Shown here in pieces: positions 10,279-61,367 of a stretch of DNA of 64,000 nucleotides. Source of the stretch: a virus. The position numbers were made by a program, and so were the translations under genes. Below the pieces are notes generated by a model that saw only the letters and a program-made list of their open reading frames with translations, did no database searches and had not been told where the DNA came from. The number at the start of each line of letters is the position of its first letter. The stretch's first letter is position 1. The DNA lies in the IMG/VR virus record IMGVR_UViG_3300035698_007246, positions 1 to 64,000 of that record; one strand, 5' to 3'.

Positions 10279-11223
10279 ATGAGTTATACAGATGAGTTTG
10301 TAAAGAAAAATAAATTTAAACCCGATGAGTTATTCATCCGGGATAATTTGATTATGGAGTGTGTCATGGGTTCTCAAGCCTATGGTGTTGCTAATAAAGA
10401 TTCTGATATTGACATCATTGGAATCACAATGAATCCACATAAACAATTATTCCCACAGAAATATGGGTATGTTCGTGGGTTTCATGAACCAAAGATGTTT
10501 ACTAATTTAGAAATTAAAGGACCACAGAAACGTATTATTCTTGAGAATGGTATTGATTGTGAAGGTGAATGGCATTCTCTTGTGGATTTTTTTAACCTTG
10601 GGGGGTTGAAAGCCTCTCCGAATGTATTGGAAATTCTTTTTGTTCGAAGACCTTTGGTGACACATGGGTCAAATGTTGCATGGATTCTTAGGGATAATAG
10701 GCGATTGTTTCTTTCAATGAAATGTTTTGATTCATTGAAGAATTATGCACATGCCCAACTTATGCGTATTAAACGTGGGGTTGCTAGATGGGGAAAAGAA
10801 CATACATGTGAAAATTCTAAACGAAAAGAATATTTTGAAAATTTTGGATATGATGTAAAACAGGCTTATCATCCATTGAGATTGCTTGATAATCTTCATC
10901 AGATTCTTACCACTGATGACATTGACCTTATGAAAAACAATAAGGAATGTCAGCGTATGCGTAAGGGTGAACTTTACACATTCACAGAATTCGAACAGTA
11001 TGTTAATGAGAAAATTAACAGTTTGGAAAAAATTGCTGATATGAATAATAGTTTGTCAATCAAGCCACAGAGACAGGCTTTACAACAATTGCTTATTGAT
11101 TGTATCGAAGAGCATTATGGTTCTGAAGAGAATTTTCAGGACAATCAAACTGAATATGTTTCTGTTAAAGAATTGAAAGAACATCTTGATAGAATTGAAA
11201 CTAAAATTGATAAGTTGGGATAG
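10279..11223 (+). CDS. Pol-beta-superfamily nucleotidyltransferase domain protein
   Basis: GSQAYGVANKDSDIDIIG fits the GS-x9-DxD minimal nucleotidyltransferase signature. Long C-terminal extension of unknown function. Confidence 0.45.
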   Translation: MSYTDEFVKKNKFKPDELFIRDNLIMECVMGSQAYGVANKDSDIDIIGITMNPHKQLFPQKYGYVRGFHEPKMFTNLEIKGPQKRIILENGIDCEGEWHSLVDFFNLGGLKASPNVLEILFVRRPLVTHGSNVAWILRDNRRLFLSMKCFDSLKNYAHAQLMRIKRGVARWGKEHTCENSKRKEYFENFGYDVKQAYHPLRLLDNLHQILTTDDIDLMKNNKECQRMRKGELYTFTEFEQYVNEKINSLEKIADMNNSLSIKPQRQALQQLLIDCIEEHYGSEENFQDNQTEYVSVKELKEHLDRIETKIDKLG

Positions 11224-16899: not shown

Positions 16900-17391
16900 T
16901 TGGAAAAGTTTAAATTGTTTTGGGGTGGAGTTTATTCTCAGTGGAATAAGATGAGAATATACGACCCGAAGTTGAAAATGGAATTTAATTGCAATGAGCA
17001 GTGCATGATGTACTTTAAAGCAACATTGTTTGATGATACTGAAATAGCTGATAAGATTATGGGAAGTAGTGATGCCAGACAGCAAAAGAAATACGGAAGA
17101 GAAGTTAAAGATTTTGATGTTGATGTTTGGGAAAAATATGCATTTCTGATTGTTGAAAGAGCAAATTATTTAAAGTTCATGCAGAACAGACTTGCATTAC
17201 AAGAAATGATGGCTGATGTTGACGCAGGATATACTACATTTGTTGAAGCCTCCCCTTTTGATAAGATATGGGGAATTGGATTAGCAGAAGATGACCCGGA
17301 TTGTCTCGATAGAGAAAAATGGCTGGGAAAAAATTGGTTAGGATTGGCAATCACAAGTGTTAAAGATAGAATCATAAAGGAGTTGATGTAA
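16900..17391 (+). CDS. NADAR (YbiA/DUF1768-like) domain protein
   Basis: FWGGVYSQW...FNCNEQCMMYFKATLFDD...SPFDKIWGIGL matches NADAR family landmarks. TTG start after AGGAGA RBS. Confidence 0.55.
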   Translation: MEKFKLFWGGVYSQWNKMRIYDPKLKMEFNCNEQCMMYFKATLFDDTEIADKIMGSSDARQQKKYGREVKDFDVDVWEKYAFLIVERANYLKFMQNRLALQEMMADVDAGYTTFVEASPFDKIWGIGLAEDDPDCLDREKWLGKNWLGLAITSVKDRIIKELM

Positions 17392-18106: not shown

Positions 18107-18607
18107 TTGACTAAAGTAATAAAAATAATCAGTGGGGGGCAATGTGGGTCCGATTCCGGTGGGTTGGCAGCGGCTTATGATTTGGGTATAGAAACAGGTG
18201 GAACTGCTCCTAAAAATTTTAGAACTAAATATGGTTCGAATCCTAAATTGAAAGCTCTGGGGTTGGTTGAACATAAATCATGGGAATACAAACCCAGAAC
18301 TTGGGATAATGTGCAAAATTCTGATGGAACCATTCGTTTTGCGTATGACTTTGAGTCTCCGGGTGAACGGGACACATTGGCAGCAATAATGAAATATACA
18401 AAGCCACATCTTGATATTGATTTAAAAGAACTTGAGATGGGGCATTATCTCCCATTCGACTTCACTGAATTCATAGACGAATATCAAATTTCAGTTCTAA
18501 ACGTTGCTGGTAATGGTGGAAAGGGTAGAGAAGAGTCTTCAAAGATTTTTAGTCTTGTGAGGAGGTATATGAAAATTTGGTTAGGATTTTGTAATAAGGA
18601 TGGATGA
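18107..18607 (+). CDS. SLOG-superfamily (YpsA / putative MoCo-carrier-like) protein
   Basis: IISGGQCGSDSGGLAAAYDLGIETGGTAPKNFRT resembles the GGQTGxD...GGxCPKGR signature of YpsA-like SLOG Rossmann domains. TTG start. Confidence 0.4.
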   Translation: MTKVIKIISGGQCGSDSGGLAAAYDLGIETGGTAPKNFRTKYGSNPKLKALGLVEHKSWEYKPRTWDNVQNSDGTIRFAYDFESPGERDTLAAIMKYTKPHLDIDLKELEMGHYLPFDFTEFIDEYQISVLNVAGNGGKGREESSKIFSLVRRYMKIWLGFCNKDG

Positions 18608-19650
18608 ATATGAAAGTTAGTAGATTTACGGATATAGGGCAATTCCGAAATGTTATTAGAACTATTTGTGATAGAGCAAAATTTGTTGGTTTGGGTGAGG
18701 ATGGTAATCCAATATTGGATGAATCTGCTACAATGCCAATATTAACATTTAAAGGAACTGTAAAACTTCATGGAACAAACGCAAGTGTTGGTTTTAATGA
18801 TGTTGGTATGTATTGTCAAAGCCGAACAGAAATAATAACTATAGACAAAGATAATGCAGGATTTGCATTTTTTGCTGAGTCTAAAAGGGAAATATTTAAA
18901 AATTGGAATAGTACAATTAGACATCACAACAATATAAAAGATTCCACTGTTATGATTTATGGTGAATGGTGTGGTGGTAATATTCAAAAGGGTGTGGCTA
19001 TAAATGGGTTGCCGAAGATGTTTGTAGTGATTGCTATTAAAATAATTCCTGATGATGAAGATGGTGTATCATATTATTTACAACCAAGATATTGGAATGA
19101 TTTAAATTGTCATGAAAAATTAATTTATAACATTTATGATTTTCAGTTGTATCAAATAGATATTGATTTTAATAATCCAAAATTATCACAAAATGAAATT
19201 GTTAAATTGGTTAAATTGGTTGAAGATGAATGTCCTGTTGGAAAATATTTTGGAGTATCTGGTGTTGGTGAGGGGATTGTTTGGGAAGGTTGGTGGAATT
19301 ATGAAAGGTATGTTTTTAAAACTAAAGGTGAAAAACATTCCGTGAGCAAAGTAAAAACAATTGCTGAAGTTGATGTTGAAAAATTAGATTCTATAAATGA
19401 TTTTGTGAAATATTCTGTTACTGATAATCGTCTTAATCAAGCAATTGAGCAGGTGTTTACATGTAAATCATTGAAACCTGATATTAAATACACTGGCGAC
19501 TTTTTACGGTGGTTAGTTAGTGATGTAATAAAAGAAGAGTTTGATACTTTGGTAGAAAATAATTTAGAACCAAAAGATGTTAAAAAAAGTATTAGTGTGT
19601 ATGGTAGAAAATGGTATTTTAAATATTTAAATGATTTGGATATATTATAA
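18604..19650 (+). CDS. RNA ligase, Rnl2-like
   Basis: Nucleotidyltransferase motif I KLHGTN (T4 Rnl2 has KIHGTN). Motif IV-like GEGIVWE. Motif V K-x-K (VFKTKGEKH). Size 348 aa is close to Rnl2. Confidence 0.55.
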   Translation: MNMKVSRFTDIGQFRNVIRTICDRAKFVGLGEDGNPILDESATMPILTFKGTVKLHGTNASVGFNDVGMYCQSRTEIITIDKDNAGFAFFAESKREIFKNWNSTIRHHNNIKDSTVMIYGEWCGGNIQKGVAINGLPKMFVVIAIKIIPDDEDGVSYYLQPRYWNDLNCHEKLIYNIYDFQLYQIDIDFNNPKLSQNEIVKLVKLVEDECPVGKYFGVSGVGEGIVWEGWWNYERYVFKTKGEKHSVSKVKTIAEVDVEKLDSINDFVKYSVTDNRLNQAIEQVFTCKSLKPDIKYTGDFLRWLVSDVIKEEFDTLVENNLEPKDVKKSISVYGRKWYFKYLNDLDIL

Positions 19651-22090: not shown

Positions 22091-22537
22091 ATGAAAATAA
22101 TAAAAGGTGATTTAATTAAAATGACATTAGATGGTAAATTTGATGTCATCATACATGGCTGCAACTGTTTTGTTGTGATGGGTGGCGGGATAGCCAAGCA
22201 AATTAAAGAAGCATTCCCCGAAGCGTATGCAGCAGACTGTGAAACGGTTAAAGGTGATAAAACGAAATTGGGTATGAATACTTATGCTAAAGTTGGTGAT
22301 GTTATAATTGTTAATGGTTATACTCAATTTACATATCAAAGAAAAGTTAGTGTTGATTATGACGCTATTCGTAGTGTATTCGAGCAGATATATTTTCATT
22401 TTAAAGGAACCACTGCCAGGATTGGGTATCCTCTCATTGGTTGTGGACTTGCTGGTGGTGATTGGGATATTGTTTCTAAAATTATTGATGAGGAATTAAA
22501 AGAACTCGACCATACATTAGTTGAGTGGGATGGTTAA
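22091..22537 (+). CDS. macro domain protein (TARG1/DarG-macro-like ADP-ribose hydrolase)
   Basis: IIHGCNCFVVMGGGIAKQIKEAFPEAY matches the macrodomain Gly-rich ADP-ribose-binding loop. The H-C-x-x-C context resembles the TARG1/OARD1 subfamily. Confidence 0.55.
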   Translation: MKIIKGDLIKMTLDGKFDVIIHGCNCFVVMGGGIAKQIKEAFPEAYAADCETVKGDKTKLGMNTYAKVGDVIIVNGYTQFTYQRKVSVDYDAIRSVFEQIYFHFKGTTARIGYPLIGCGLAGGDWDIVSKIIDEELKELDHTLVEWDG

Positions 22538-22734: not shown

Positions 22735-22917
22735 ATGAAAATATTGAAATTCATATTAATGGTTCTTGAAATTTGGGTAGTGTGTACAATATTTATGTGT
22801 TTCAAGTATATTCCAGATTGGGATTTAGCTCAATTTTGTGGTGGGGCGGGGTATGGTGCATATGGAGTAATAAGAATTATCATGTGGAGTAAATATTATA
22901 CGGAGAACAGTAAATGA
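22735..22917 (+). CDS. small membrane protein
   Basis: 60-aa hydrophobic ORF after GGGAGGAAAA RBS. Confidence 0.35.
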   Translation: MKILKFILMVLEIWVVCTIFMCFKYIPDWDLAQFCGGAGYGAYGVIRIIMWSKYYTENSK

Positions 22918-23756
22918 TTTTATTGACTGGGGATACACATAGAAGTGAAGACATACATAAATTGGGAACAAGTTGTTTTCCAGTGGACTGTGATAGACTT
23001 ACAAAAGAAGATTATCTTATTGTGTTGGGTGACTTTGGATTAGTCTGGAGTAGACCGGAATCTAAGTTTTACAAAGAAGAATTATATTGGCAGGGATGGT
23101 TAGCCGATAAGCCGTGGACAACATTGTTTGTTGATGGTAACCATGAGAATCATCCGATGTTGTATGAACTACCTGAAGTGGAAAAGTTTGGTAGCAAGGT
23201 TGGAAAAGTTAATGATTCCATATACCATCTTAAGAGAGGTGAAGTCTATGAAATTGAAGGGCAAACGTTCTTCACAATGGGTGGAGCATTCTCTATTGAT
23301 AGGAATACGAAAGTAAAAGGAGTTAGCTGGTGGGAAGAGGAGATTCCTTCTACTGCTGAGTTCGAATATGGATTGAAAAATCTTGAAGCTCATGGTTGGA
23401 AAGTTGATTACATTTTGGGACATACTTGCCCATATAACATTGGGAGATTATATCTGAAATGTATAACTGACGCAGGTAATAATATACTTCAAAAAATAAA
23501 TATGGATGATGTTGGTGTGTCATTGACAGGTGAACAACTTGCATATTTATCATTTGATGAAGAATATTTTTCTGGAAAATTGGATGGTATTTCAAAATAT
23601 TTTGATACTGTTGTCGAATATACACAGTTTAAAAAGTTTTATTTCGGACATTTTCATGATTCATGGTGTACCAAAGGAGAACGATATATTATGTTGTATG
23701 AAGATATCGTTTTCTTGGATGAAATAAAACCAGAATGGAAATCGGTTTGGGAATAA
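22914..23756 (+). CDS. calcineurin-like metallophosphoesterase
   Basis: GDTHRS (GDxH), LGDFG (GDxxD), DGNHENH (GNHE) motifs in canonical order. Confidence 0.55.
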   Translation: MILLTGDTHRSEDIHKLGTSCFPVDCDRLTKEDYLIVLGDFGLVWSRPESKFYKEELYWQGWLADKPWTTLFVDGNHENHPMLYELPEVEKFGSKVGKVNDSIYHLKRGEVYEIEGQTFFTMGGAFSIDRNTKVKGVSWWEEEIPSTAEFEYGLKNLEAHGWKVDYILGHTCPYNIGRLYLKCITDAGNNILQKINMDDVGVSLTGEQLAYLSFDEEYFSGKLDGISKYFDTVVEYTQFKKFYFGHFHDSWCTKGERYIMLYEDIVFLDEIKPEWKSVWE

Positions 23757-28134: not shown

Positions 28135-28192
28135 TGAATGTGTATGTGTGATAACACGAGAAGAGTTGTTGAAGAAACTAATAAAGGGAGTG

Positions 28193-28692
28193 ATGAAATG
28201 ATAAAAGTAATACTGATGATTGGATTACCCGGTAGTGGTAAATCAACAGTGGCTGAGAAAATGTTACTTAGTTCAAAGAAGACAGTGATAGTTAGTCGTG
28301 ACTCTATAAGAGAAATGGTTTGTGGTAAATATAAGAACTACAAATTTACTGACATCAAAGAAGATATGGTAAAGTCAATGGCAACTGCTTGTATTGAAGT
28401 CGCTATTGAACGTGGCTTGAGTGTGATAGTGGATGAAACAAACTTTACAAAGAAGTCCAGAACATACTGGATGAATATGATATCATGCATTTGCGAACGC
28501 AAGGGTGTCAATGTGAAGTACTGTGGTGTGTGGGTTGATACACCAAAGGGTGAGTGTATCAAAAGACGCAAAGCCGACCCTAAAGGAACCAATGATAATT
28601 GGGCTGCCATCATAGGGAATATGTTGAAGTATTGGGATGAACCTGAAGCTGATGAATTTGACAAATTGGAAATTATAACAGACGAGGTATAA
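28193..28692 (+). CDS. polynucleotide 5'-kinase (T4 Pnk kinase-domain-like), no phosphatase domain
   Basis: P-loop ILMIGLPGSGKST, then SRDSIRE and VDETNFTKKSRTYW. Collinear with T4 Pnk kinase domain (ILTIGCPGSGKST...NRDDYRQ...ISDTNLNPERR). Confidence 0.55.
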
Positions 28693-34999: not shown

Positions 35000-35209
35000 A
35001 TGAGTAAATTAAATGAAAATGAATTTAAAGAAGTAACTAAAACATTTATAAACAGATTGAGTAATGAAATGTCAACCGCAGGGTGTAATGATTTGGATGA
35101 TGATGAATTTCCTACAACTGTTTGTGAGAAGTTTGATTCTGATTTTGAGTTATTATACGAGTGGAGTAGTATGATAGTTAAACAAAAGGAATTAAAAGAT
35201 GAAAAATGA
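35000..35209 (+). CDS. small acidic protein
   Basis: 69-aa ORF. Confidence 0.35.
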   Translation: MSKLNENEFKEVTKTFINRLSNEMSTAGCNDLDDDEFPTTVCEKFDSDFELLYEWSSMIVKQKELKDEK

Positions 35210-35942
35210 TAGTTTAGGTGATAGAATGAAGGGATATGAACACATATCCAGAATATTATTAACTCGTAGAATGCCACTCATCATCCGTGTGGATGGAAAA
35301 GCGTTCCACTCATTGACAAAGAAAATGGATAAACCATATGATATCACGTTTAGTCACTGCATGATGAGGACTGCACGTTTTCTTCTTGAGAACATTATGG
35401 GTGCAAAGCTCGCTTATGTTCAATCAGATGAGATTTCTGTATTGTTGACAGACTACGATTCATTGTCAACAGAGCCTTGGTTTCAAAAGAATATACAGAA
35501 AATCGTTAGTGTGTCTGCAAGTATGGCGACCATGAAATTTAATGAGTTGTATCGTACACATGTTCATTCATCAAAGAAAGTCAAAGATTATGGATTGTTT
35601 GATTCCAGAGTATTTGTTATTCCGAAGGAAGAGGTGTGTAATTATTTTATTTTTCGACAGCAAGACGCTGTTCGTAATTCCATTCAGGGATTAGGGCAAG
35701 CTCATTTCTCTCACAAAGAACTTCAAGGAAAGTCTTGTAATGCGATTCAGGATATGCTGATGGTTGATAAGAAAATCAATTGGAATGATATAAGCCCATA
35801 TTTTAAACGTGGTGGGTGTTTCTATCGCAACTTAAGCATTGATACTGATGAAAATACAAACAATGTTGTTACTGATGTTGCACCTCCGACATTCACACAA
35901 GACCGTGATTATATTGAGAAGTATTTGTTTCTCGAAAAATAA
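35199..35942 (+). CDS. Thg1-like protein (tRNA-His guanylyltransferase family, 3'-5' nucleotidyltransferase)
   Basis: N-terminal GYEHISRILLTRRMPLIIRVDGKAFHSLTKKMDKPYD ... AYVQSDEISVLL matches the Thg1/TLP palm-domain landmarks (RIDG+FH, carboxylate-bearing SDE). Confidence 0.55.
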   Translation: MKNDSLGDRMKGYEHISRILLTRRMPLIIRVDGKAFHSLTKKMDKPYDITFSHCMMRTARFLLENIMGAKLAYVQSDEISVLLTDYDSLSTEPWFQKNIQKIVSVSASMATMKFNELYRTHVHSSKKVKDYGLFDSRVFVIPKEEVCNYFIFRQQDAVRNSIQGLGQAHFSHKELQGKSCNAIQDMLMVDKKINWNDISPYFKRGGCFYRNLSIDTDENTNNVVTDVAPPTFTQDRDYIEKYLFLEK

Positions 35943-36362: not shown

Positions 36363-36989
36363 ATGAGACCAATTGTTTGGGTAGTTGATACTCAAAAAGA
36401 TTTTATTGATGAAGACGGAAAATTATCTGTGCCTGGTGCAGTTGATATAAGACAAAATATTCTTTCTACACTTTTGACAGCAGAAAAGTTTGATGTTTCT
36501 ATTTATGGAAGCGTGGACGCACATGAAAAAAATGATGTGGAATTTTTAGATTATCCAGTTCATTGTGTGATTGATACAGATGGTCAAAAGAATATACCTG
36601 AAAGTATTATCAGTCACCCGGATAACGTATACTATGTCCCAAACAATGGGCAGGGAGTTGACATGTCTTCGTTTGAAGGGGCACGTCAAGTGTACTTTGA
36701 GAAGCAGTGTGTCAATATATGGGATAAGTGTAAAGGACAGCCCGACAATATTCAAACGCTTCTCCGTATGACTGACATCACTGATGTGTATGTTGTTGGT
36801 GTGGCTACAGAACTATGTGTTCTTGAAGCTGTATTGGGTTTTCTTGCTCGTGACTATAACGTATTCGTTGTTGAAGACGCAACAAAAGGATTAAGTGTTG
36901 ACGGTGAAGTACAAGCTAAAGATAAAATGGCGTCTTTTGGAGCTGAGTTTATCACAACAAAACAATTAGAATGTATGTTTGACAAATAG
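36363..36989 (+). CDS. isochorismatase-family cysteine hydrolase (second copy)
   Basis: VWVVDTQKDFIDEDG (DxQxDF). VVGVATELCVLEA (nucleophile Cys). Confidence 0.5.
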   Translation: MRPIVWVVDTQKDFIDEDGKLSVPGAVDIRQNILSTLLTAEKFDVSIYGSVDAHEKNDVEFLDYPVHCVIDTDGQKNIPESIISHPDNVYYVPNNGQGVDMSSFEGARQVYFEKQCVNIWDKCKGQPDNIQTLLRMTDITDVYVVGVATELCVLEAVLGFLARDYNVFVVEDATKGLSVDGEVQAKDKMASFGAEFITTKQLECMFDK

Positions 36990-37015
36990 TGATAACTTTT
37001 TCAAAGGAGTATTAA

Positions 37016-37864
37016 ATGGATTATAAAAAAGTATATGAAAATATTCAAAATAATTTTAGACAGTATCTATTTAAGTCTGGATTGAAAGCCGTAGTCATTG
37101 GTGAGAGTGGTGGTCTTGATAGTGGTGCGATTAGTGCACTTGCTCGTCCGGTATGCGATGAGCTTGGTGTGAAACTTATTGGTAGATACATTGGAATTGA
37201 AACCAATGGTGATGACGAGTTAGAACGTGCTAATGCTATTGGTAAAGCCTTTTGTCATGATTATAAAGTAATTGATATGTCCCACATCTCTGTAGATTTG
37301 CGTACTTTCGTAGAAGAGATGGAAGGAATGGAAACTGATTTTAAAGCAATACCAAGAAAAATACGTAATGGTAATACTAAAGCCAGACTTCGTATGATTT
37401 ATCTTTACAATCTTGCTCAGTTACATGGTGGAATGGTTCTCAGTACAGATAATTTGACAGAGTTTATGTTAGGGTTTTGGACATTACATGGTGATGTTGG
37501 GGATTATGGGATGATTCAATATCTTAAGAAGACTGATGTGTTTGGTCTTGTTAAGTGGATTGCATTAAATGTCTGTGGTGGCACAGGTAGTGTTTGTCGC
37601 AATGTTTTACTTGCATGTTATGACGCAATACCAAAAGATGGTCTTGGTATTAGTAAATCTGATGTGGAGCAATTAGGTGCAGAAGATTATTATGAAGTTG
37701 ATGACGTTCTATATGGTTTTATTGACGCTGTGATTGATGATGACCTTGGTACGGCAGAGAAGTTGAAACCACATCCTGTTGTCCAAAGACATTTTGCGTC
37801 TCAATTCAAAAGGAGTAATCCATATAATATTCCAGAGGGTGAGCTTACACGGGGGGCAACATAA
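37016..37864 (+). CDS. nadE: NH3-dependent NAD+ synthetase (NadE-like)
   Basis: AVVIGESGGLDSGAISALA PP-loop in the NadE position. Length 282 aa. Confidence 0.55.
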   Translation: MDYKKVYENIQNNFRQYLFKSGLKAVVIGESGGLDSGAISALARPVCDELGVKLIGRYIGIETNGDDELERANAIGKAFCHDYKVIDMSHISVDLRTFVEEMEGMETDFKAIPRKIRNGNTKARLRMIYLYNLAQLHGGMVLSTDNLTEFMLGFWTLHGDVGDYGMIQYLKKTDVFGLVKWIALNVCGGTGSVCRNVLLACYDAIPKDGLGISKSDVEQLGAEDYYEVDDVLYGFIDAVIDDDLGTAEKLKPHPVVQRHFASQFKRSNPYNIPEGELTRGAT

Positions 37865-42478: not shown

Positions 42479-43699
42479 ATGAAATTATTTAGGAAACATT
42501 GTATTGAATCATTAGCGGATACAGATTTATATAAATTAACTATGTTGTATGTATTCTGGAAAAAATATAGAGACCATAAAGGTACATATAAATACACTTG
42601 TCGTAGTGACCATAATTTGATACCTTATAAATCAGAAATATTTAAAGAAATTCATCACCTATCTACATTAAAATTTCAAAAAACAGAATTGGAATACATT
42701 AAAAATCTTGGTTTATTTAATAATGATTTTATGGAATATTTAAAGACATTTCAATTGAATATTAAAGATTTAAATATATTTGAACATAATGGTAAATTAC
42801 AAATAGAAGTAACAGGAAATGTTATAAATTCTATGATGTATGAAGTATACATTTTAGCAATCGTATCTGAAGTATATAATAGAAATGTGTATGACGGTAT
42901 AGATATAACTGAAGGTGAGAAAAGATTAAAGACTAAAGTTGAAACTATACATAGTTCTAATATTGTTGGAATATATGCAAAATATGTTGATATGGGAACT
43001 CGTAGACGATTTTCTCATTTGTGGCAAGAATATACTATTAAATATCAATTAGATTACATTAAAAATCTTGGTTTATTTAATAATGATTTTATTGGCACAA
43101 GTAATGTATATTTTGCTATGAAATTTGGGTGTAAATGTTACGGAAGTCAGGCTCATGAAATTCAAAGTTTTTATCAATCCATGTGTCATGTTAAAGATTC
43201 ATTAAAAAAATGTTTTGATGATTGGATTGATGTGTATGGAGCTACGTTAGGAACTGTATTGTCTGATACATTAACAGTTGATGTGTTTTTAAAAAATTTT
43301 GATAAAAAATATGCAATATTATTTAATTCTGTCAGAGAAGATTCTGCTAATAATTTGGAAGAGTTTGTGGACAAAATAATAAATCATTATAAAAAATTGG
43401 ATATTGTCCCAACAACAAAATCTATAATATTTAGTAATAGTTTAAATTTTAATAAAGCAATACATATTGCAACCTATTGTAATGGTAAAATAGGATGTTC
43501 GTTTGGAATAGGGACAAATCTTACTAATGATATGGGTGATGATGTTACTCCAGTACAAAGTGTAATGAAACTTATTTTTGCAGGTAAAGAATTTAATGAT
43601 ATGAGACCTGTTTGTAAACTTTCGGATATATCAGAAAAAAGTTGTGGTGGCTCTCAACAACAAATTGATTATGTTAAGCATGAACTTGGATTAATTTAG
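42479..43699 (+). CDS. pncB: type II phosphoribosyltransferase, nicotinate/nicotinamide PRTase family (PncB-like)
   Basis: N-terminal LADTDLYKLTM (compare PncB LDTDAYKLHM), GTRRRFS, GTSNVYFA...GSQAHE in PncB order. 406 aa. Contains a 37-nt perfect internal direct repeat. Confidence 0.55.
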   Translation: MKLFRKHCIESLADTDLYKLTMLYVFWKKYRDHKGTYKYTCRSDHNLIPYKSEIFKEIHHLSTLKFQKTELEYIKNLGLFNNDFMEYLKTFQLNIKDLNIFEHNGKLQIEVTGNVINSMMYEVYILAIVSEVYNRNVYDGIDITEGEKRLKTKVETIHSSNIVGIYAKYVDMGTRRRFSHLWQEYTIKYQLDYIKNLGLFNNDFIGTSNVYFAMKFGCKCYGSQAHEIQSFYQSMCHVKDSLKKCFDDWIDVYGATLGTVLSDTLTVDVFLKNFDKKYAILFNSVREDSANNLEEFVDKIINHYKKLDIVPTTKSIIFSNSLNFNKAIHIATYCNGKIGCSFGIGTNLTNDMGDDVTPVQSVMKLIFAGKEFNDMRPVCKLSDISEKSCGGSQQQIDYVKHELGLI

Positions 43700-44663: not shown

Positions 44664-45335
44664 ATGATGTTTAAATATTTGGGAATTACAGGGGCACCTG
44701 CCTGTGGTAAAAGTTATTTCAGCAAAATGGTTGTTGAAGTATGTAAAGAATATTTCATAGAAGTTCATCACATTGATTTTGATAAACTCGCTCATGATAT
44801 ATACGTTGATGATTATATGGGAGTGTGTTATAAAATTAAAGAACAATGGAATGGTGTTGTTAAAGTTAATAATCTCAACACATGGATTCAATCAGCTACT
44901 GTTGACAGAAAGAAACTCGGTGAGATTGTTTTTAATAATCCTGGTTGTCTTAGTACGTTAGATGATATTATGAAGGAACCAATGAAATGTAAAATAAAAG
45001 AAACTCTTAAAGATAAGACTGGTCTTATTCTTATGGATTGTGCTTTAATGGCGGAACATAAGTTGTTTGATTATTGTGGTGGTAAATGTGTTGTGATTGA
45101 TGTTCCAAAAGAAATTCAACACAAACGATTAAAAGAGCGTGGGCTTTCTGATGATTTCATTGAAAATATGTTGGGTAGCCAATTGCTTAGTAAAGGTAAA
45201 ATGAAAAGGTTGGTAGATAATGATGTTAATGTTTGGTATGAAGATTTATATCATAAAAGGAAACCAACGGTTCAGAAATTAGTTATAAGAAATATATTAA
45301 GAAATTTGGTTTTTAATGAAGGGGACTTGTTGTAA
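44664..45335 (+). CDS. P-loop nucleotide/nucleoside kinase-like protein
   Basis: LGITGAPACGKSYFSK Walker A at extreme N-terminus (dephospho-CoA kinase / nucleoside kinase-like architecture). Confidence 0.35.
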   Translation: MMFKYLGITGAPACGKSYFSKMVVEVCKEYFIEVHHIDFDKLAHDIYVDDYMGVCYKIKEQWNGVVKVNNLNTWIQSATVDRKKLGEIVFNNPGCLSTLDDIMKEPMKCKIKETLKDKTGLILMDCALMAEHKLFDYCGGKCVVIDVPKEIQHKRLKERGLSDDFIENMLGSQLLSKGKMKRLVDNDVNVWYEDLYHKRKPTVQKLVIRNILRNLVFNEGDLL

Positions 45336-46990: not shown

Positions 46991-47240
46991 TCAATATAAT
47001 ACAAAAGGAGAAGTTGATAAATGGAAACGGAAACAGAAAAATTAAAAGAAAATGATTGCAAGTTAACCGACGCTAAAGGAGTAGTTGTGAAAACATTTAG
47101 ATTGCAGAAAATATTGGGAATATTTGGAAATGCTTTAATGATTTATTTGTTGCTTGGGTTTGTGGAACCAAATCGAATGTTTCAAGTTGCATTAATGTTG
47201 GGATGTTTTGGATATGTTAATGCAACGATTTGGAGAAATT

Positions 47241-48230
47241 ATGGATAAATCAATTTTAATTACAGGTGGATGTGGATTCATTGGAAGTAATCTCGTAAGG
47301 ATGGTTGCTAACCGATTTCCTACATCAAGTTTAATTGTTGTAGATAGTTTGACATATGCCGGAGATAGAAAAAATATTGAAGGTGTTGATGTTATATTTC
47401 ATCAGTTTGATATTACAAATTCTGTTGAAATGGAATTCTTGTTTGCTAATTATGACATTAGGATGGTGTTTCATTTGGCAGCGGAAAGTTTTGTAGATAA
47501 TTCAATTGATTCATCTAATGTGTTTGCGAAAACAAATGTTCTTGGTACTCATACATTGATTGATGTTTCTAATAGATATTGGAAAAAGATTGATTATGGT
47601 GAATGTAAATTTATTCATGTGTCTACAGATGAAGTATATGGTGCATTAGGTAAATATGATGAGTCATGGACGGAAGAGTCTCCATATTTACCAAACAATC
47701 CATATTCAGCGTCAAAAGCTGCGTCTGATATGTTTGTTAGAGCATATGTTAATACATATGGGTTTCCAGCTATCATTACACATTGTAGTAATAATTATGG
47801 CATTTATCAACATACCGAAAAATTAATACCAACAGTTATTGAACGTATATATAATGATGAACCTATTCCAGTGTATGGACAAGGATTACAAATACGAGAT
47901 TGGATTCCGGTTGATAAACACTGTGATGCATTAATATTCATTGCTAATAAAGGACGTGATGGGGAAGTTTATAATATTGGTGCAGATAATGAAGTGACTA
48001 ATATTGATTTGGTTAAAAAGATATGTGAGATTATGGGAAGAGAACCTGAAACTCTAATATCATATGTCAAAGACCGCCTTGGGCATGATTTTAGATACTC
48101 TATAAATAGTTCGAAGTTACAGGGGCTTGGGTGGAAACCTTGTGTTGAATTTAAATTAGGATTGGAAGAAACTGTTAAATGGTATGTTGATAAATTAAAT
48201 AAGGAGTGTAGTGATGGGACCAACGTATAA
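47241..48230 (+). CDS. NAD-dependent sugar-nucleotide epimerase/dehydratase (RmlB-like dTDP-glucose 4,6-dehydratase family)
   Basis: ILITGGCGFIGSNL Rossmann motif and YSASKAASD (YxxxK) catalytic motif. Start at ATG after GGAGAAA. Confidence 0.6.
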   Translation: MDKSILITGGCGFIGSNLVRMVANRFPTSSLIVVDSLTYAGDRKNIEGVDVIFHQFDITNSVEMEFLFANYDIRMVFHLAAESFVDNSIDSSNVFAKTNVLGTHTLIDVSNRYWKKIDYGECKFIHVSTDEVYGALGKYDESWTEESPYLPNNPYSASKAASDMFVRAYVNTYGFPAIITHCSNNYGIYQHTEKLIPTVIERIYNDEPIPVYGQGLQIRDWIPVDKHCDALIFIANKGRDGEVYNIGADNEVTNIDLVKKICEIMGREPETLISYVKDRLGHDFRYSINSSKLQGLGWKPCVEFKLGLEETVKWYVDKLNKECSDGTNV

Positions 48231-48630
48231 AGAAGCTGATGTACAATGGAAGTTGCTAACTGATAGGATTGCAACTATTAAGAGAAGTGTGGGATATCTA
48301 ATTAAAGAACATATCTTGTATAGTGTGGTTCAAGAAAGTGTTGACCACATTGATGAGATATTAAATGATTTGATTACGTTCACTGAAAAACAAATCGGTG
48401 AAGATTTCAATGTTGTGTTGACTGATGTTGGTATTAAAACGATTCAAGTAATAAAATTAGTGAGAGAGCTTACTGGTAAAGGATTACGTGATTCTAAAGA
48501 GATTGTTGATAACGTTAATTTTGGTGATAGCCCAATGTGTATTGGTACTTTTAAATTGTGTGTGGCTTCTGATATTAGAGATAGATTTATCAAAGTTGGT
48601 GCAACTGTTTCAATTGAGGGGGTTAAGTGA
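48211..48630 (+). CDS. protein with ribosomal bL12 (L7/L12) C-terminal-domain-like fold
   Basis: VIKLVRELTGKGLRDSKEIVD closely parallels the bL12 CTD helix VIKAVRxxTGLGLKEAKDLVE. The C-terminal beta-alpha segment (KVGATVSIEG) also fits. Confidence 0.45.
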   Translation: MMGPTYKEADVQWKLLTDRIATIKRSVGYLIKEHILYSVVQESVDHIDEILNDLITFTEKQIGEDFNVVLTDVGIKTIQVIKLVRELTGKGLRDSKEIVDNVNFGDSPMCIGTFKLCVASDIRDRFIKVGATVSIEGVK

Positions 48631-48884
48631 TTATGAACATAATTGGAATTATATTAATAATAATGTTTTTGGTGACATGTATCACTATGTGGGTTTTCAT
48701 TGCAAAGATTTGTGCAGTACTAAGAACATTGAAAGCTATCCAGTCTGGTGTTGCAGTGTCAGTACGAGGTGTTGGAACAATAGTTGATGGTAAACTTAAG
48801 GACTATAAGTTATCAGGGTTTGATGTTGTAAAGGGTATTGTAAAAGGAAAAGATTTTTTGAAAGGGAAGATGAAAAATGATTGA
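48627..48884 (+). CDS. small membrane protein
   Basis: N-terminal TM helix. Confidence 0.4.
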   Translation: MIMNIIGIILIIMFLVTCITMWVFIAKICAVLRTLKAIQSGVAVSVRGVGTIVDGKLKDYKLSGFDVVKGIVKGKDFLKGKMKND

Positions 48885-49371
48885 AATATTAAAGAGTGAG
48901 ATTAAAGACGCAATGCGAAGCAGTCAATCTATCAGATTAAAATTGTTGAGAATGGTGATGTCCGAAATACAAAAGGTTGCCATCTCAGAGAAGCGTAAAG
49001 ACATCACTGAGGATGATTTAATCAAAGCGGTGACTTCTGGTATCTCTGAAAGAAAGAATGCTATTCTTAAATTCGATAAAGGTATTGCTGACATCATTAC
49101 AAAGAATGGTAGTATTGATAAAGAAACTGAAGATAAATCTAATCAAGGTATTGCAAAAATCAATGCTGAGATTGAGGTGTACAAAGAATTCCTTCCATTA
49201 CAATTGACTGATGATGAAGTTGAAGTATTGGTTGACAAGGCTATAGCTGGCACAGGTGCGACTTTAAGGAAAGAAATGGGACGTATAATATGTCGGGTTA
49301 AAACTGAAATACAATCTGGTGCTTATGAAATGAAGAGGTTATCGAAGATGGTGATGTCAAAACTTAATTAG
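48877..49371 (+). CDS. GatB/YqeY-domain protein
   Basis: LKSEIKDAMRSSQSIRLKLLRMVMSEIQK resembles the YqeY/GatB-C helical domain signature (LKxAMKAKDKxRLxVLRMLLSAIQ). Confidence 0.45.
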   Translation: MIEILKSEIKDAMRSSQSIRLKLLRMVMSEIQKVAISEKRKDITEDDLIKAVTSGISERKNAILKFDKGIADIITKNGSIDKETEDKSNQGIAKINAEIEVYKEFLPLQLTDDEVEVLVDKAIAGTGATLRKEMGRIICRVKTEIQSGAYEMKRLSKMVMSKLN

Positions 49372-49379
49372 GAGCAAGT

Positions 49380-49964
49380 ATGAAAGAAGAATTACGTTAT
49401 GATGAAAACACTAAGAAAGTGGTTACTCAAGATGAGTATGTCAAACAATATTTAAACAAGGAAGAAGACTCTGTTGAGAAGTTTAAAGGGTTGCCAATTG
49501 CAATTATTGGGTTTGATAGTGAAGCTGAAACCCTTAAGCATATCAAACGGGTTAATGATTTATTGTTAATGATGTCAAAGAAGTTAATTGACAGAGCAAG
49601 TGCTCATGATGCTTCAAAACTTAAGACTCAGGAGAAGGAACTCTTTGATATGTATACTCCTCGGTTAAAGGATGTGAAGTTTAATGATGATAATGAAGAG
49701 TATAATGAGCAGAAGAAAGATTTGGAACCTGCATTAAAACATCACTATCAAAATAATAGACATCACCCAGAGTATCATAAAGATGGTGTCAATGATATGA
49801 CATTGATTGATTTGGTTGAAATGCTTGTTGATTGGAAGGCAACAAATGAACGTCAACCCGATGGTAATGTGTTGAATTCAATTGATACATTAAAAGAGAC
49901 ATTTAAATTAACTAAACAGTTGGCTGACATTCTTAAGAATACAGTCAAGGATTATTTACAATAA
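49380..49964 (+). CDS. hypothetical protein
   Basis: 194 aa. His-rich patch HHYQNNRHHPEYH. Confidence 0.4.
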   Translation: MKEELRYDENTKKVVTQDEYVKQYLNKEEDSVEKFKGLPIAIIGFDSEAETLKHIKRVNDLLLMMSKKLIDRASAHDASKLKTQEKELFDMYTPRLKDVKFNDDNEEYNEQKKDLEPALKHHYQNNRHHPEYHKDGVNDMTLIDLVEMLVDWKATNERQPDGNVLNSIDTLKETFKLTKQLADILKNTVKDYLQ

Positions 49965-50813: not shown

Positions 50814-52991
50814 ATGGAGATTGATGTGAAATATATCAAATTTGGTAATGGTTATCTTGTTCAGCAAGAAGTACAAAGCCAAGCAACAACAACTAAGAAG
50901 GTTAAAGAAAAAACGAACCATATTTGGATTTATGATAGAAGTTATTCAATGTCATATGAATTACCCAATATGATTAATCAGTTGGTTACATTGTCGGAGA
51001 ACCTTCCAAAAGGTGATACTATTACTCTTGGCTACTTTTCCAGTGAAGGTGAGTACAAGTTTATCATCAAGGGTTTTAAAATCACTAACAAGGCTGATTA
51101 TGCTTTTCTTGAAGCAACAATCAGAAAGAACTCTCGTCCTATTGGGTGCACATGTTTTAGTGAGATTATTAATGAAACTGATGAAGTCATCGAAGACTTG
51201 TCCTTGTTCTCAAAGACATTCAGTTTTGCTTTCTTTACAGATGGGTATCCTGTGGTTCACAATTACCAAAAAGAGATTGACAATATCAGAATTGGTATTG
51301 ACAAAATCAAAGGTAAGCTCACCACAGCAATGTTTATTGGGTGTGGTCATTTTTACAACAAACCGTTGATGACAAAGATGGCAGAACGTATTGGTGGAAT
51401 GCTCATCCATAATGATTCCATTAAAGAGTTCACTCCTACCATCACTCGTCTTGTTCAACTGTCTGAATCGTCAGAACCTAAGATTGAAGTGAAGTCACCG
51501 TTTGAAAAACCTGTTGCGGTTTACACAGTGACAGACCAAGGTGTCGTACTTAATGATATCGAAGATGGTAAGCTATCAGTTTCACCTGAAACTGGTAAGT
51601 CAGTGAAGTTATACTACATCGTTGATGATGTGAGTGGTCTCGCTGCAAAAAAGGTTACTCCAGTGGAACTTGGAGTTGAAGCTGTTTATGGTGGAACGTT
51701 GGTGTTATGTCAACAGATGAAGACTGATAAGGCAATGGAACTTGTTGGTATTGTTGGTGATAAGTATTTCATTGACAAACTTACAAATGCATTCGTGATT
51801 GACGAATACGGTAAAGTTGAAAATGAATTGAATGATGCTATTCATAACGAAGACGAACGTTTTAAGAATGGTGCTGATAAGAATTATCTCCCTAAGTCTG
51901 ATGCTTTTAATGTTTTTGAGTTACTTAATATATTAAAAGATGATGATAATTCAGTTTTTTATCCTTATGACAAGCGTTTTAAGTATGAAAAGATTTCTAA
52001 GGGAACTGTGCTTGAAGATGGCTATTCAAAATTTAAACCATCTTCTGATAACGAATGTTCTTTTAATGAATTGGTGTGGCATAAGTCAAGACTGAATTTA
52101 TCAGTCAGAATTACATCAAAGGGAACTATTGAGTTACAAGAACGTGATGGTAAGAATGCAGGGGATTATGGTTTTACCCAGATTTTTCCAACATGGGTAT
52201 ATCGAAATTATAGTTTTGTGAAAGATGGTAGACCTAATATTAAAAAGTTTTATGTTGGTACTTCTAAAGAAACGTATGAAACATTGAAGAGTCATGGTAT
52301 TGTAGTTGATGATACATTTAAAAAGAATGGTATTTATGGATTAGATATTTCAAACTTACCTTCTATGAATCGTGGTATGGCAAATGGTAATACAAATGGT
52401 ACTGAACTTTGTAGAAATGTTTATTCTGAATTAGATTTGATGGCTCAATTAAAAGTGTATAAATGGTTTCTTAAAGAAGAATTTCCAGATGATGATAAAG
52501 ACCCAACATCATTTTCAGAAGAGCAGAAAGGATTTCTTGAAGCTAATGGAATTTTGGTTGACAAAGGAGGAGTATATGCACCACCTGTGAAATCTGGAAT
52601 AGAAAGTTTTGATTATTATATGGTTAAGCGTTTCGAAATTAAAGTTAAAAGTTTAACCAGTTTACCATCTTTGAATGCAGTGTACAAGAAATTGAACTCT
52701 GGTAAGAAGTTGACATTATCTGAATCATTATTAAATGAGTCTATTGAAAAGTATGATTCATATAAAGATGACAATGATAGTTTACTTGAAAGGAAAAAGT
52801 ATCTTGAGGATACGATTACTCAATTGAAAATTAAATTGAAACCGATTAGGAATGATATTCAAAAATGTAAATTTGCTATCATACTTGGGAGACAGTGGTT
52901 TCAAGAATTTTCAAGTCGAGAACAAACTCAACTTGAAGTTGATGGTAATACATTTAATTTTCTTTTAAGTGACGAAAAGGTTAAGATATAG
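50814..52991 (+). CDS. large vWA-domain protein
   Basis: N-terminal IWIYDRSYSMS (MIDAS DxSxS) followed by about 500 aa without recognised motif. Confidence 0.4.
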   Translation: MEIDVKYIKFGNGYLVQQEVQSQATTTKKVKEKTNHIWIYDRSYSMSYELPNMINQLVTLSENLPKGDTITLGYFSSEGEYKFIIKGFKITNKADYAFLEATIRKNSRPIGCTCFSEIINETDEVIEDLSLFSKTFSFAFFTDGYPVVHNYQKEIDNIRIGIDKIKGKLTTAMFIGCGHFYNKPLMTKMAERIGGMLIHNDSIKEFTPTITRLVQLSESSEPKIEVKSPFEKPVAVYTVTDQGVVLNDIEDGKLSVSPETGKSVKLYYIVDDVSGLAAKKVTPVELGVEAVYGGTLVLCQQMKTDKAMELVGIVGDKYFIDKLTNAFVIDEYGKVENELNDAIHNEDERFKNGADKNYLPKSDAFNVFELLNILKDDDNSVFYPYDKRFKYEKISKGTVLEDGYSKFKPSSDNECSFNELVWHKSRLNLSVRITSKGTIELQERDGKNAGDYGFTQIFPTWVYRNYSFVKDGRPNIKKFYVGTSKETYETLKSHGIVVDDTFKKNGIYGLDISNLPSMNRGMANGNTNGTELCRNVYSELDLMAQLKVYKWFLKEEFPDDDKDPTSFSEEQKGFLEANGILVDKGGVYAPPVKSGIESFDYYMVKRFEIKVKSLTSLPSLNAVYKKLNSGKKLTLSESLLNESIEKYDSYKDDNDSLLERKKYLEDTITQLKIKLKPIRNDIQKCKFAIILGRQWFQEFSSREQTQLEVDGNTFNFLLSDEKVKI

Positions 52992-60722: not shown

Positions 60723-61367
60723 GTGGTAGCAAAATGTTCGTATGTGATGCCATACAAAGAAATAACTAAAAAAAAAGAGCATGAATTAATATCAAATATA
60801 AAAACTGGATGTAAAGAATCTGAAAAGGAATTGTTTAATAATAAAATCAATCTTATTATAAAACTCATACAAAAATATTCTTTAAATAGTAATTGGATTG
60901 AAATGAATGACTTAATTCACGAGGCATATTTTGGGTTTAGGAAAGCTGTTGATAAATATAATGGGGAGTTTGCATTCAATACATATCTTCGTCAATGGGT
61001 TATCGCCAAAGCTCAAATGTTTTACCATAGAATCAAAGGTGGTATGAGCAATAAGACTCCGTATGTTAATAAACAGGTGTATATATTTGTTGGTGGGGAT
61101 ACTGGATATGATTTAATGTATTCTGATTACGATACAGAACCTGGATGGATGAGAGAACCTGACCCCATTGATTTTAATAGGTTCACTGAATTAACTAAAG
61201 GTGAACGGAGAGCTATTGATTTATATATTAATAAAAAGAAAACTGTGATTCAGATGGCAAAGGATAGGGGTGTGACGAAACAAGCTATATTTGGTGCGGT
61301 GTTGCGAGCCAAAACTAAATTAAAGAAACATTTTTTAAAAAATGTATTGACATACCCATCCCCATAA
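60723..61367 (+). CDS. sigma-70-family RNA polymerase sigma factor (regions 2 and 4)
   Basis: Region 2-like DLIHEAYFGFRKAVDKYNGEFAFNTYLRQWVIAKAQ. Region 4 HTH-like LTKGERRAIDLYINKKKTVIQMAKDRGVTKQAIFGAVLRAKTKLKK. AGGAGA RBS. Confidence 0.5.
   Translation: MVAKCSYVMPYKEITKKKEHELISNIKTGCKESEKELFNNKINLIIKLIQKYSLNSNWIEMNDLIHEAYFGFRKAVDKYNGEFAFNTYLRQWVIAKAQMFYHRIKGGMSNKTPYVNKQVYIFVGGDTGYDLMYSDYDTEPGWMREPDPIDFNRFTELTKGERRAIDLYINKKKTVIQMAKDRGVTKQAIFGAVLRAKTKLKKHFLKNVLTYPSP

What the first reader, a model, noticed from the sequence alone, without database searches (positions are those of the whole stretch)
48211..49371. Ribosomal bL12 C-terminal-domain homolog next to a GatB/YqeY-domain protein
The bL12 CTD is the ribosome element that recruits and activates translational GTPases. 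A phage copy lacking the N-terminal dimerisation/stalk region (48211-48630) could act as a factor-binding decoy or be incorporated into the stalk. Two genes downstream, a GatB/YqeY-domain protein (48877-49371) also points at translation or aminoacyl-tRNA handling. Phage-encoded ribosomal protein fragments are known but rare and functionally unexplored.
Basis: partly seen in the sequence, partly recalled or inferred. Interest (0 to 1): 0.65.

Follow-up and report, generated by a model that had tools for sequence, protein, structure and literature searches.

The report
Phage bL12-head domain protein, lineage-specific cassette
A large uncultured phage carries a small gene whose C-terminal half is a genuine copy of the factor-binding head of ribosomal protein bL12 on an unrelated helical handle; this kind of phage gene is already known, it sits in a swap-prone slot, and its neighbour YqeY is not functionally tied to it.

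Summary

The bL12-like protein is not a bL12 orthologue. It fails the full-length TIGR00855 model (36 against 84 bits). It has no detectable N-terminal dimerisation/uL10-binding domain and no Ala/Gly/Pro hinge. Residues 1-62 are an orphan predicted two-helix hairpin.

Three related phage lineages share the flanks (RmlB 73%, membrane protein 83%, YqeY 67%, DUF5662 78% identity). Only this one has the bL12-like gene, as a precise 433-bp cassette (48200-32). The relatives carry unrelated genes there instead. The bL12-YqeY adjacency is therefore incidental.

Phage bL12-CTD proteins were described in 2019 as the second most common virus-encoded ribosomal protein. The domain is also widely reused in non-ribosomal proteins.

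Most likely it is an off-ribosome, trans-acting bL12 head that engages translational GTPases. That mechanism is inferred, not shown. Verdict: new member of a known kind, modest interest.

The parts
47208..48230 (+). dTDP-glucose 4,6-dehydratase (RmlB); conserved left flank of the variable slot. The true start is probably near 47241.
   Evidence: TIGR01181 equivalog 403.5 bits against cutoff 365.1; PF16363/PF01370; 73% aa identity to the related phage loci L008-L012.
48200..48632 (+). Window-specific 433-bp cassette: the bL12-like gene with its own Shine-Dalgarno. Homology to relatives stops at 48199 and resumes at 48633.
   Evidence: blastn breakpoints against L008 and L012; tblastn finds no bL12-like sequence anywhere in L008-L013.
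48201..48206 (+). Shine-Dalgarno AAGGAG, 7 nt upstream of ATG 48214.
   Evidence: Read directly from the sequence.
48214..48630 (+). 138-aa bL12-CTD-domain protein (ORF listed from GTG 48211; probable start ATG 48214; stop TGA 48628-48630).
   Evidence: Composition is typical of the phage (GC z=0.16, codon-usage z=0.11).
48214..48399 (+). aa 1-62: orphan N-terminal region, predicted as two long helices (6-34, 40-62). It is not a detectable bL12 NTD and has no A/G/P-rich hinge.
   Evidence: AF2 pLDDT 49-72. NTD-HMM score -0.4 bits, with 1115 of 3000 shuffles as good or better. hhalign adds no score when extended into this region. The exhaustive search finds no homologues for this region. A+G+P fraction 0.05 against 0.55 in the E. 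coli hinge.
48400..48621 (+). aa 63-136: bL12 C-terminal domain (beta-alpha-alpha-beta-alpha-beta), with the alpha4/alpha5 factor-contact signature retained.
48633..48884 (+). 83-aa protein with a hydrophobic N-terminal segment (probable single-pass membrane protein); conserved right flank.
   Evidence: 83% aa identity to the L008 81-aa ORF. No family hit. The membrane helix is inferred from the sequence.
48877..49371 (+). YqeY-family protein (164 aa), part of a conserved membrane-protein/YqeY/DUF5662 block.
   Evidence: PF09424 83.4 bits; PHROG 1460; 67% and 63% identical orthologues in related phages. Distant phage homologues are mostly in jumbo phages.
49380..49964 (+). DUF5662 protein (194 aa), a conserved neighbour of YqeY.
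   Evidence: PF18907 115 bits; 78% identity in L008-L010.

Best explanation
The gene encodes a free-standing, off-ribosome 'bL12 head'. It is a bona fide bL12 C-terminal domain fused directly, with no flexible hinge, to an unrelated two-helix N-terminal handle. A large uncultured phage carries it as a lineage-specific single-gene cassette in a swap-prone slot between rmlB and a conserved membrane-protein/YqeY/DUF5662 block. The most likely mode of action is that the conserved alpha4/alpha5 face binds the host's translational GTPases (EF-G G' domain, EF-Tu, IF2, RF3) in trans. That would compete with, or redirect, the factor recruitment normally done by the ribosomal stalk. The helical handle would provide self-association (raising avidity) or docking to a partner that is still unknown. 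Shown: domain identity, fold, retention of contact residues, absence of NTD and hinge, cassette status, phage context. Inferred: binding to GTPases, action in trans, and any effect on translation. The YqeY gene is a separate, vertically conserved gene of unknown function, and its adjacency to the bL12-like gene is incidental.
For: Domain and fold. Contact residues: E. coli V66/V68/I69/K70/R73/G79/L80/K84 map to I77/V79/I80/K81/R84/G90/L91/K95, and E82 maps to D93. The window shares the consensus residue in 17 of the 22 columns conserved at >=70% across 422 domain instances. Residue roles are from PMC5887453. Not a stalk subunit: no PF16320 hit; TIGR00855 36.1 bits against cutoff 84.4, matching model positions 57-124 only; NTD-HMM at shuffle level; hhalign aligns the CTD only; no hinge. 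Cassette. Real, expressed-looking gene: own SD, tight co-directional packing, native composition. Precedent: phage bL12 domains on unrelated polypeptides, acquired repeatedly, with only weak ribosome association when tested (PMC6375957). Context: the window is full of accessory, RNA-repair and NAD-salvage genes.
Against: There is no direct evidence of GTPase binding. To my knowledge, not checked here, isolated bL12 CTD binds factors only weakly and EF-Tu is very abundant, so simple titration seems inefficient unless the protein is abundant or oligomeric. The same signature residues are conserved in non-ribosomal PF00542 arrays and kinase fusions, so they may reflect fold stability or another shared partner. 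K65 is T and P91 is N, with a 3-4 residue loop insertion. The N-terminal model has low confidence (pLDDT 49-72). All six metagenome copies encode an identical protein and differ from the window by at most 2 nt, so selection could not be measured.
Confidence: 0.42

Rival explanations
1. Generic interaction module with a non-translational role. PF00542 is a widely reused domain, and here it mediates binding to something other than translation factors, with the orphan N-terminal hairpin carrying the real specificity.
For: The exhaustive search gives 671 hits, and the top ones are long proteins with 2-7 tandem PF00542 repeats. Fusions to Ser/Thr kinase, LRV and HEAT repeats exist. Phage bL12 domains are embedded at variable positions in large unrelated proteins (PMC6375957). 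The window CTD is no closer to true bL12s than to non-ribosomal domains.
Against: The only experimentally known partners of this fold's alpha4/alpha5 face are translational GTPases and uL11. The non-ribosomal copies conserve that face too, which could equally mean that they also bind GTPases.
Confidence: 0.25
2. Stalk incorporation. The N-terminal helical hairpin is a non-homologous (or unrecognisably diverged) analogue of the bL12 NTD. It dimerises and docks on uL10, installing hinge-less phage heads on host ribosomes.
For: The architecture (two N-terminal helices plus CTD) superficially parallels bL12, and Foldseek aligns 120-129 columns to full-length 1dd3_A and 1rqu_A. phmmer gives a colinear but non-significant alignment of aa 32-51 to bL12 5-24. 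One phage bL12-domain protein was detected by MS in 70S fractions (PMC6375957).
Against: The NTD profile score is at shuffle level. hhalign gains nothing and the global score drops from 77 to 70. There is no PF16320 hit and TIGR00855 fails. The full-length superpositions have rmsd 13-17 Å. The helices are about twice as long as those of the bL12 NTD. The tagged phage bL12 could not be co-purified with ribosomes.
Confidence: 0.12
3. Anti-defence decoy. [quoted passage not shown]
For: The Cami1-70S structure 8phj contains a bL12 CTD chain that matches the model. Cami1 is cited as an L12-mediated interaction (PMC12179292) and is a common cA4-activated effector (PMC11229360). The gene is a lineage-specific cassette in a variable slot, within a region rich in counter-defence-type functions: RNA repair, NADAR/Macro, NAD salvage.
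Against: Entirely circumstantial. The host and its defence repertoire are unknown, and the protein was not scanned against PADLOC or any anti-defence library.
Confidence: 0.08
4. ClpS-like adaptor. The domain is really a ClpS-type N-degron adaptor (same fold superfamily) that redirects host Clp proteolysis.
Against: The sequence profile is unambiguously PF00542, with no ClpS family hit at E<=1. Identity to ClpS is 8-17% against 27-35% to bL12, and rmsd is about 2.6 Å against 1.1-1.6 Å.
Confidence: 0.02
5. Decaying passenger. A captured gene fragment with no current function.
For: Absent from the relatives. Orphan N-terminus.
Against: The ORF is intact with a strong SD. Composition is fully native. 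The family's conserved residues are retained, including all six nearly invariant columns of alignment A1. The protein is identical across six contigs from separate samples.
Confidence: 0.06

Closest known systems
Virus-encoded bL12-domain proteins (Mizuno et al. 2019, Nat Commun 10:752; e.g. Ralstonia phage RSB3 98 aa, Dinoroseobacter phage DFL12phi1 106 aa, Salmonella phage FSL SP-076 418 aa)
   Same: A PF00542 CTD with conserved factor-contact residues, encoded by a phage and attached to non-ribosomal sequence. It sits in a non-conserved genomic context consistent with independent acquisition. Function is unknown.
   Different: The 62-aa N-terminal helical region has no homologue outside its own cluster among 1.84 billion representative proteins. 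The carrier looks like a large phage: 64 kb with no structural genes detected, and distant YqeY and vWA homologues in 140-735 kb phages. The cultivated cases were all under 80 kb. Here the single-gene cassette boundaries are resolved by comparison with two sister lineages.
Bacterial ribosomal protein bL12 (RplL; TIGR00855; PDB 1ctf, 1dd3, 1rqu, 8yeq)
   Same: C-terminal domain: same fold (rmsd 1.1-1.6 Å), 27-35% identity, and the alpha4/alpha5 signature retained.
   Different: No NTD (PF16320), no flexible hinge, fails the equivalog cutoff, has a 3-4 residue insertion in the alpha5-beta2 loop, K65 is T, and the surface is not acidic/Ala-rich.
Non-ribosomal PF00542 repeat proteins (tandem arrays of 2-7 copies; fusions to Ser/Thr kinases and LRV/HEAT repeats)
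   Same: Use of the bL12 CTD outside the ribosome with the same conserved residues. Similar single-domain similarity scores to the window CTD.
   Different: Those are cellular-looking, multi-copy or multidomain proteins. The window protein has a single copy on a short helical handle and is phage-encoded.
YqeY family (PF09424; B. subtilis yqeY, often in an operon with rpsU/bS21)
   Same: The 48877-49371 product matches the full model at 83 bits. Phage homologues are annotated 'glutamyl-tRNA amidotransferase' or YqeY in jumbo phages.
   Different: No GatB catalytic domain was found, so the 'amidotransferase' label is an over-annotation. There is no bS21 gene next to it. It has roughly 16 extra residues relative to the Pfam model.

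Membership tests
Ribosomal protein bL12 (orthologue, TIGR00855) | C-terminal domain matching PF00542 above the gathering score | tested here: met
   45.7 bits against 25.9, model 1-66 of 67; hhalign probability 98%.
Ribosomal protein bL12 (orthologue, TIGR00855) | CTD alpha/beta fold (beta-alpha-alpha-beta-alpha-beta) | tested here: met
Ribosomal protein bL12 (orthologue, TIGR00855) | N-terminal dimerisation / uL10-binding domain (PF16320) | tested here: not met
   No Pfam hit at E<=1. Custom NTD HMM scores -0.4 bits, and 1115 of 3000 shuffles are equal or better. hhalign extension adds no score.
Ribosomal protein bL12 (orthologue, TIGR00855) | Flexible Ala/Gly/Pro-rich hinge between NTD and CTD | tested here: not met
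   A+G+P is 0.05 in the 20 aa before the CTD against 0.55 in E. coli. The predicted helix 40-62 runs straight into beta1 at 64.
Ribosomal protein bL12 (orthologue, TIGR00855) | Full-length equivalog score above the curated cutoff | tested here: not met
   36.1 bits against cutoff 84.4; only model positions 57-124 matched.
Ribosomal protein bL12 (orthologue, TIGR00855) | Assembly on uL10 in the 50S stalk and stimulation of factor GTPase | not testable with these tools
   Needs biochemistry or complex prediction.
Virus-encoded bL12-domain proteins (Mizuno 2019) | PF00542 domain encoded in a phage genome, typically on a non-ribosomal polypeptide | tested here: met
   The phage nature of the window rests on PHROG/Pfam content and single-strand gene packing. 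Domain. Orphan N-terminus.
Virus-encoded bL12-domain proteins (Mizuno 2019) | Conserved residues for EF-G / EF-Tu / uL11 contact retained | tested here: met
   V66I, V68, I69, K70, R73, G79, L80, E82D and K84 retained or conservatively replaced (residue roles from PMC5887453). Not diagnostic, because non-ribosomal copies keep them too.
ClpS adaptor (PF02617) | ClpS sequence profile / N-degron pocket | tested here: not met
   No ClpS family hit at E<=1. Only fold-level similarity, at 8-17% identity.
YqeY family (PF09424) | Full-length match to the YqeY model above the cutoff | tested here: met
   83.4 bits against 27; protein 5-163 covers model 4-143 of 143.
GatB (Asp/Glu-tRNA amidotransferase B subunit) | GatB catalytic N-terminal domain in addition to the YqeY-like tail | tested here: not met
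   The 164-aa protein is covered end to end by the YqeY model alone, with no other family except a chance-level M11L hit. No GatA/B/C-like ORF turned up among the 48 window ORFs scanned.
Functional bL12-YqeY gene pair | Conserved co-occurrence or adjacency in related genomes | tested here: not met
   YqeY orthologues at 67% and 63% identity sit in the same synteny without any bL12-like gene.

The most novel reading that the evidence does not exclude
The orphan two-helix N-terminus is a functional analogue of the bL12 NTD that docks on host uL10. The phage would then replace flexible host bL12 dimers with rigid, hinge-less heads. To my knowledge (not checked here), E. coli hinge-deletion mutants bind the ribosome but lose factor-dependent activity. 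Such a replacement would therefore act as a dominant-negative or reprogramming stalk subunit, which would be a new mode of phage control over host translation. A second reading that is also not excluded is that the protein is a decoy for stalk-docking immune effectors such as Cami1.
Probability: 0.1. Interest if true: 0.72.

Novelty: new member of a known kind. Interest (0 to 1): 0.3.

Why it matters
Phage bL12-domain proteins have been catalogued since 2019, but no function is known for any of them. This example adds three things:
- a clean natural presence/absence comparison across three sister lineages, useful for designing a knock-in or knock-out test;
- a compact 138-aa architecture (helical handle plus head, no hinge) that is easy to express and assay;
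- a caution that the factor-contact signature is also conserved in hundreds of non-ribosomal PF00542 domains, so its presence cannot be read as evidence of ribosomal function.

It also removes the suggested bL12-YqeY functional link. If the protein does bind translational GTPases off the ribosome, it would be a simple tool and a new example of phage interference with factor recruitment. As it stands, it is an ordinary member of a known, unexplained class.

Tried and rejected
1. Hidden bL12 NTD. By eye, aa 30-62 (KEHILYSVVQESVDHIDEILNDLITFTEKQIGE) resembled the E. coli NTD, and phmmer gave a colinear sub-threshold alignment. Rejected: the NTD-HMM score is -0.4 bits with 1115 of 3000 shuffles as good or better, and hhalign gains no score when extended, with the global score lower.

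2. Single-sequence AlphaFold: useless (pLDDT 36).

3. Close relatives in deposited phages or IMG/VR: none by megablast, and none by pattern scans with the bL12-like, YqeY or vWA-like proteins.

4. Selection analysis: impossible, because all six metagenome copies are 99.9-100% identical in DNA.

5. Foreign-origin test: the gene's GC, GC3 and codon usage are typical of the phage, so there is no signal of recent capture.

6. Promoter and terminator scan: promoter-like sites are at the chance level, so it is uninformative.

7. Rfam: no RNA family in the window. No tRNAs.

8. Context of the closest single-domain relatives (P0150, P0002, P0003): short contigs, uninformative.

10. ClpS reading: rejected on profile and identity.
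Full report
**Observation**

The + strand of the window carries tightly packed co-directional ORFs at the stated coordinates.

- The 48211-48630 product matches Pfam PF00542 (Ribosomal_L12 C-terminal domain). E = 8.1e-12, 45.7 bits against a gathering cutoff of 25.9, and residues 66-135 cover model positions 1-66 of 67.
- The 48877-49371 product matches PF09424 (YqeY) at 83.4 bits against a cutoff of 27, over the whole model. It also matches PHROG 1460, labelled 'tRNA amidotransferase'.
- One ORF lies between them: 48633-48884, 83 aa, with a hydrophobic N-terminus.
- AAGGAG at 48201-48206 lies 7 nt before ATG 48214. The true product is therefore probably 138 aa, as metagenome gene callers also have it (P0001).

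**What genome this is**

- The window is 30-35% GC, and nearly all ORFs of 100 aa or more are on the + strand. There are no tRNAs and no Rfam families.
- Recognisable products are phage-type replication, repair and accessory functions:
  - DNA functions: NAD-dependent DNA ligase, HNH endonuclease, UvrD helicase.
  - RNA repair: RNA ligase, RlaP-type nucleotidyltransferase, PNK-like kinase, a Thg1-like enzyme.
  - ADP-ribose handling: NADAR and Macro domains.
  - NAD salvage: PncA-like, NAD synthetase, NAPRTase.
  - Other: CoaE, a sigma-70 region 2 protein.
- No structural genes were detected among the 48 ORFs scanned across the 64 kb.
- The 725-aa neighbour (phrog_2426) has 27% identical homologues in 140-252 kb phages such as PBS1/AR9, Ackermannviridae and Thanatos.
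- Distant YqeY homologues lie mostly in 230-735 kb phages.
- There is no near DNA match among deposited phages.

I infer a large, uncultured, tailed phage.

**The C-terminal half is a true bL12 CTD**

- Profile-profile comparison to genuine bL12s aligns aa 63-134 at probability 98%, E = 2.8e-13.
- With a 56-sequence alignment, AlphaFold2 models aa 63-136 at pLDDT 92-98, with beta-alpha-alpha-beta-alpha-beta order.
- Foldseek places solved bL12 CTDs on top: 1ctf at TM 0.87 / 1.4 Å, and 3j9y_7 at TM 0.91 / 1.1 Å.

**Factor-contact residues**

The residues reported to contact EF-G are E. coli V66-V68, K70, L80 and E82 (PMC5887453). They map to I77-Q78-V79, K81, L91 and D93. I69, R73, G79 and K84 are also identical.

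Across the 22 columns conserved at 70% or more in 422 PF00542 domain instances, the window protein has the consensus residue in 17. The non-conservative departures are K65 to T and P91 to N, next to a 3-4 residue loop insertion.

**It is not a bL12 orthologue**

- The NCBIfam equivalog model TIGR00855 scores 36.1 bits against a cutoff of 84.4, and only over model positions 57-124.
- There is no PF16320 (N-terminal domain) match.
- I suspected by eye that aa 30-62 were a diverged NTD, and phmmer gave a colinear sub-threshold alignment. The suspicion failed the controls: an NTD HMM scores the real sequence at -0.4 bits and 1115 of 3000 shuffles do as well, and hhalign gains no score when pushed into this region.
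- There is no Ala/Gly/Pro hinge. The A+G+P fraction is 0.05, against 0.55 for E. coli.
- Residues 1-62 are predicted as two long helices at modest confidence that abut beta1 directly.
- They have no homologue outside the protein's own cluster among 1.84 billion representatives.

**The domain is reused widely outside the ribosome**

The exhaustive search returned 671 hits, all to the CTD. The best are long proteins with 2-7 tandem PF00542 repeats. Some are fused to Ser/Thr kinases or LRV/HEAT repeats.

At single-domain level, the window CTD is about equally close to true bL12s and to such non-ribosomal copies. Those copies conserve the same 'factor-binding' residues. Retention of these residues therefore does not by itself show a ribosomal or factor-binding role.

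**Synteny decouples bL12 from YqeY**

YqeY orthologues at 67% (P0273) and 63% (P0274) identity were found, and their contigs were retrieved. The first lineage (L008-L011) shares the order NAPRTase, DUF6794, CoaE, UvrD, RmlB, [slot], membrane protein, YqeY, DUF5662. Amino-acid identities to the window are 73%, 83%, 67% and 78% for RmlB, the membrane protein, YqeY and DUF5662.

| Lineage | Content of the slot |
|---|---|
| Window | The bL12-like gene only |
| L008 | Four unrelated ORFs of 196, 46, 110 and 168 aa |
| L012 | A 63-aa ORF that by eye resembles the N-terminus of the L008 168-aa protein and also replaces the membrane-protein gene |

- None of these loci contains bL12-like sequence.
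- DNA homology to L008 stops at 48199 and resumes exactly at 48633. The window-specific segment is therefore a 433-bp cassette comprising the SD and the gene.
- The gene's GC, GC3 and codon usage are typical of the phage, so it is not a fresh capture from a compositionally different donor.
- Six metagenome contigs from several samples carry DNA that is 99.9-100% identical. This shows that the phage recurs, but it gives no variation for a selection test.

**Literature**

- Mizuno et al. 2019 (PMC6375957) reported bL12 as the second most common virus-encoded ribosomal protein. They describe it as a domain often embedded in unrelated polypeptides, in varied genomic contexts, acquired repeatedly, and with conserved factor-contact residues.
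- In that study one such protein was detected by MS in 70S fractions, but the tagged form could not be co-purified with ribosomes.
- BFVD contains many viral PF00542 proteins.
- YqeY has no established function. It often shares an operon with rpsU (bS21), and it is an unpublished candidate OLE-RNA binder (PMC12054373).

**Mechanism**

Shown:
- a correctly folded bL12 head with its conserved alpha4/alpha5 face;
- no stalk anchor and no hinge;
- a phage accessory cassette.

Inferred (confidence about 0.4): the protein acts off the ribosome by binding translational GTPases in trans. The helical handle would provide oligomerisation or targeting, and the effect would be to modulate host factor recruitment.

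Rivals:
- a non-translational interaction module, 0.25;
- non-canonical stalk incorporation, 0.12;
- an anti-defence decoy for stalk-docking effectors such as Cami1, 0.08;
- a decaying passenger, 0.06;
- a ClpS-like adaptor, 0.02.

**Verdict**

The domain calls are right and the 'no NTD' point is right. The link to YqeY is not supported, and the class is already known and not rare. This is a new member of a known kind with a novel orphan N-terminal handle, and it deserves modest interest (0.3).

Noticed in passing
window 48200-48632; L008 8005-9562; L012 665-838: The junction between rmlB and the YqeY block is a gene-cassette exchange hot-spot, with three different contents in three related phage lineages. 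By eye, the L008 168-aa Cys-rich ORF (MRYTKEEIIKALENIRKIRCCYAGDRCDCKFG...) and the L012 63-aa ORF (MHYTKEEIIGALNNVRRYVCCYASDNYCDCKFG...) look homologous at their N-termini.
   Followed up: partly
window 10279-11223, 18107-19650, 22914-23756, 28138-28692, 35199-35942: A scattered RNA/tRNA-repair toolkit: RlaP-type nucleotidyltransferase, cpYpsA SLOG protein, RNA ligase, metallophosphoesterase, AAA_33/KTI12 PNK-like kinase and a Thg1-like (tRNA-His guanylyltransferase family) protein. This suggests counter-measures against anticodon nucleases, yet the window has no tRNA genes.
   Followed up: no
window 36363-37864 and 42479-43699: An NAD+ salvage set (isochorismatase/PncA-like, NAD synthetase, NAPRTase), plausibly countering NAD-depleting defence systems. 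CoaE (dephospho-CoA kinase) lies at 44664-45335.
   Followed up: no
window 16900-17391 and 22091-22537: NADAR and Macro domain proteins (ADP-ribose removal), pointing to reversal of ADP-ribosylation during infection.
   Followed up: no
proteins P0005-P0013 (not in the window): PF00542 (bL12 CTD) occurs in non-ribosomal proteins as tandem arrays of 2-7 copies and fused to Ser/Thr kinases and LRV/HEAT repeats. The EF-G-contact residues are conserved across 422 such domain instances. The biology of these proteins appears unexplored and may be more interesting than the phage copy.
   Followed up: partly
window 47208-48230: The phage encodes a dTDP-glucose 4,6-dehydratase that passes the RmlB equivalog cutoff (403.5 against 365.1 bits), and it is conserved at 73% in relatives. 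Possible roles are DNA hypermodification or alteration of the host surface sugar.
   Followed up: no
window 48633-49964: The small membrane protein, YqeY and DUF5662 form a conserved, translationally overlapping trio in the window and the L008 lineage (83%, 67% and 78% identity). DUF5662 carries a His-rich motif (HHYQNNRHHPEYH). The trio, rather than bL12 plus YqeY, is the unit to study.
   Followed up: partly
window 50814-52991: The 725-aa phrog_2426 protein (annotated vWA-domain in AR9 and Internexus) is shared at about 27% identity across Ackermannviridae, PBS1/AR9 jumbo phages and Shewanella phages (504 records). It is a widely conserved large-phage protein of unknown function.
   Followed up: no
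window 60723-61367: A phage-encoded protein with sigma-70 region 2 (27 bits against cutoff 24), a possible phage sigma factor.
   Followed up: no
window 48877-49371: The PHROG 1460 and GenBank label 'glutamyl-tRNA amidotransferase' for phage YqeY proteins is an over-annotation. The protein is YqeY-only, with no GatB catalytic domain.
   Followed up: yes
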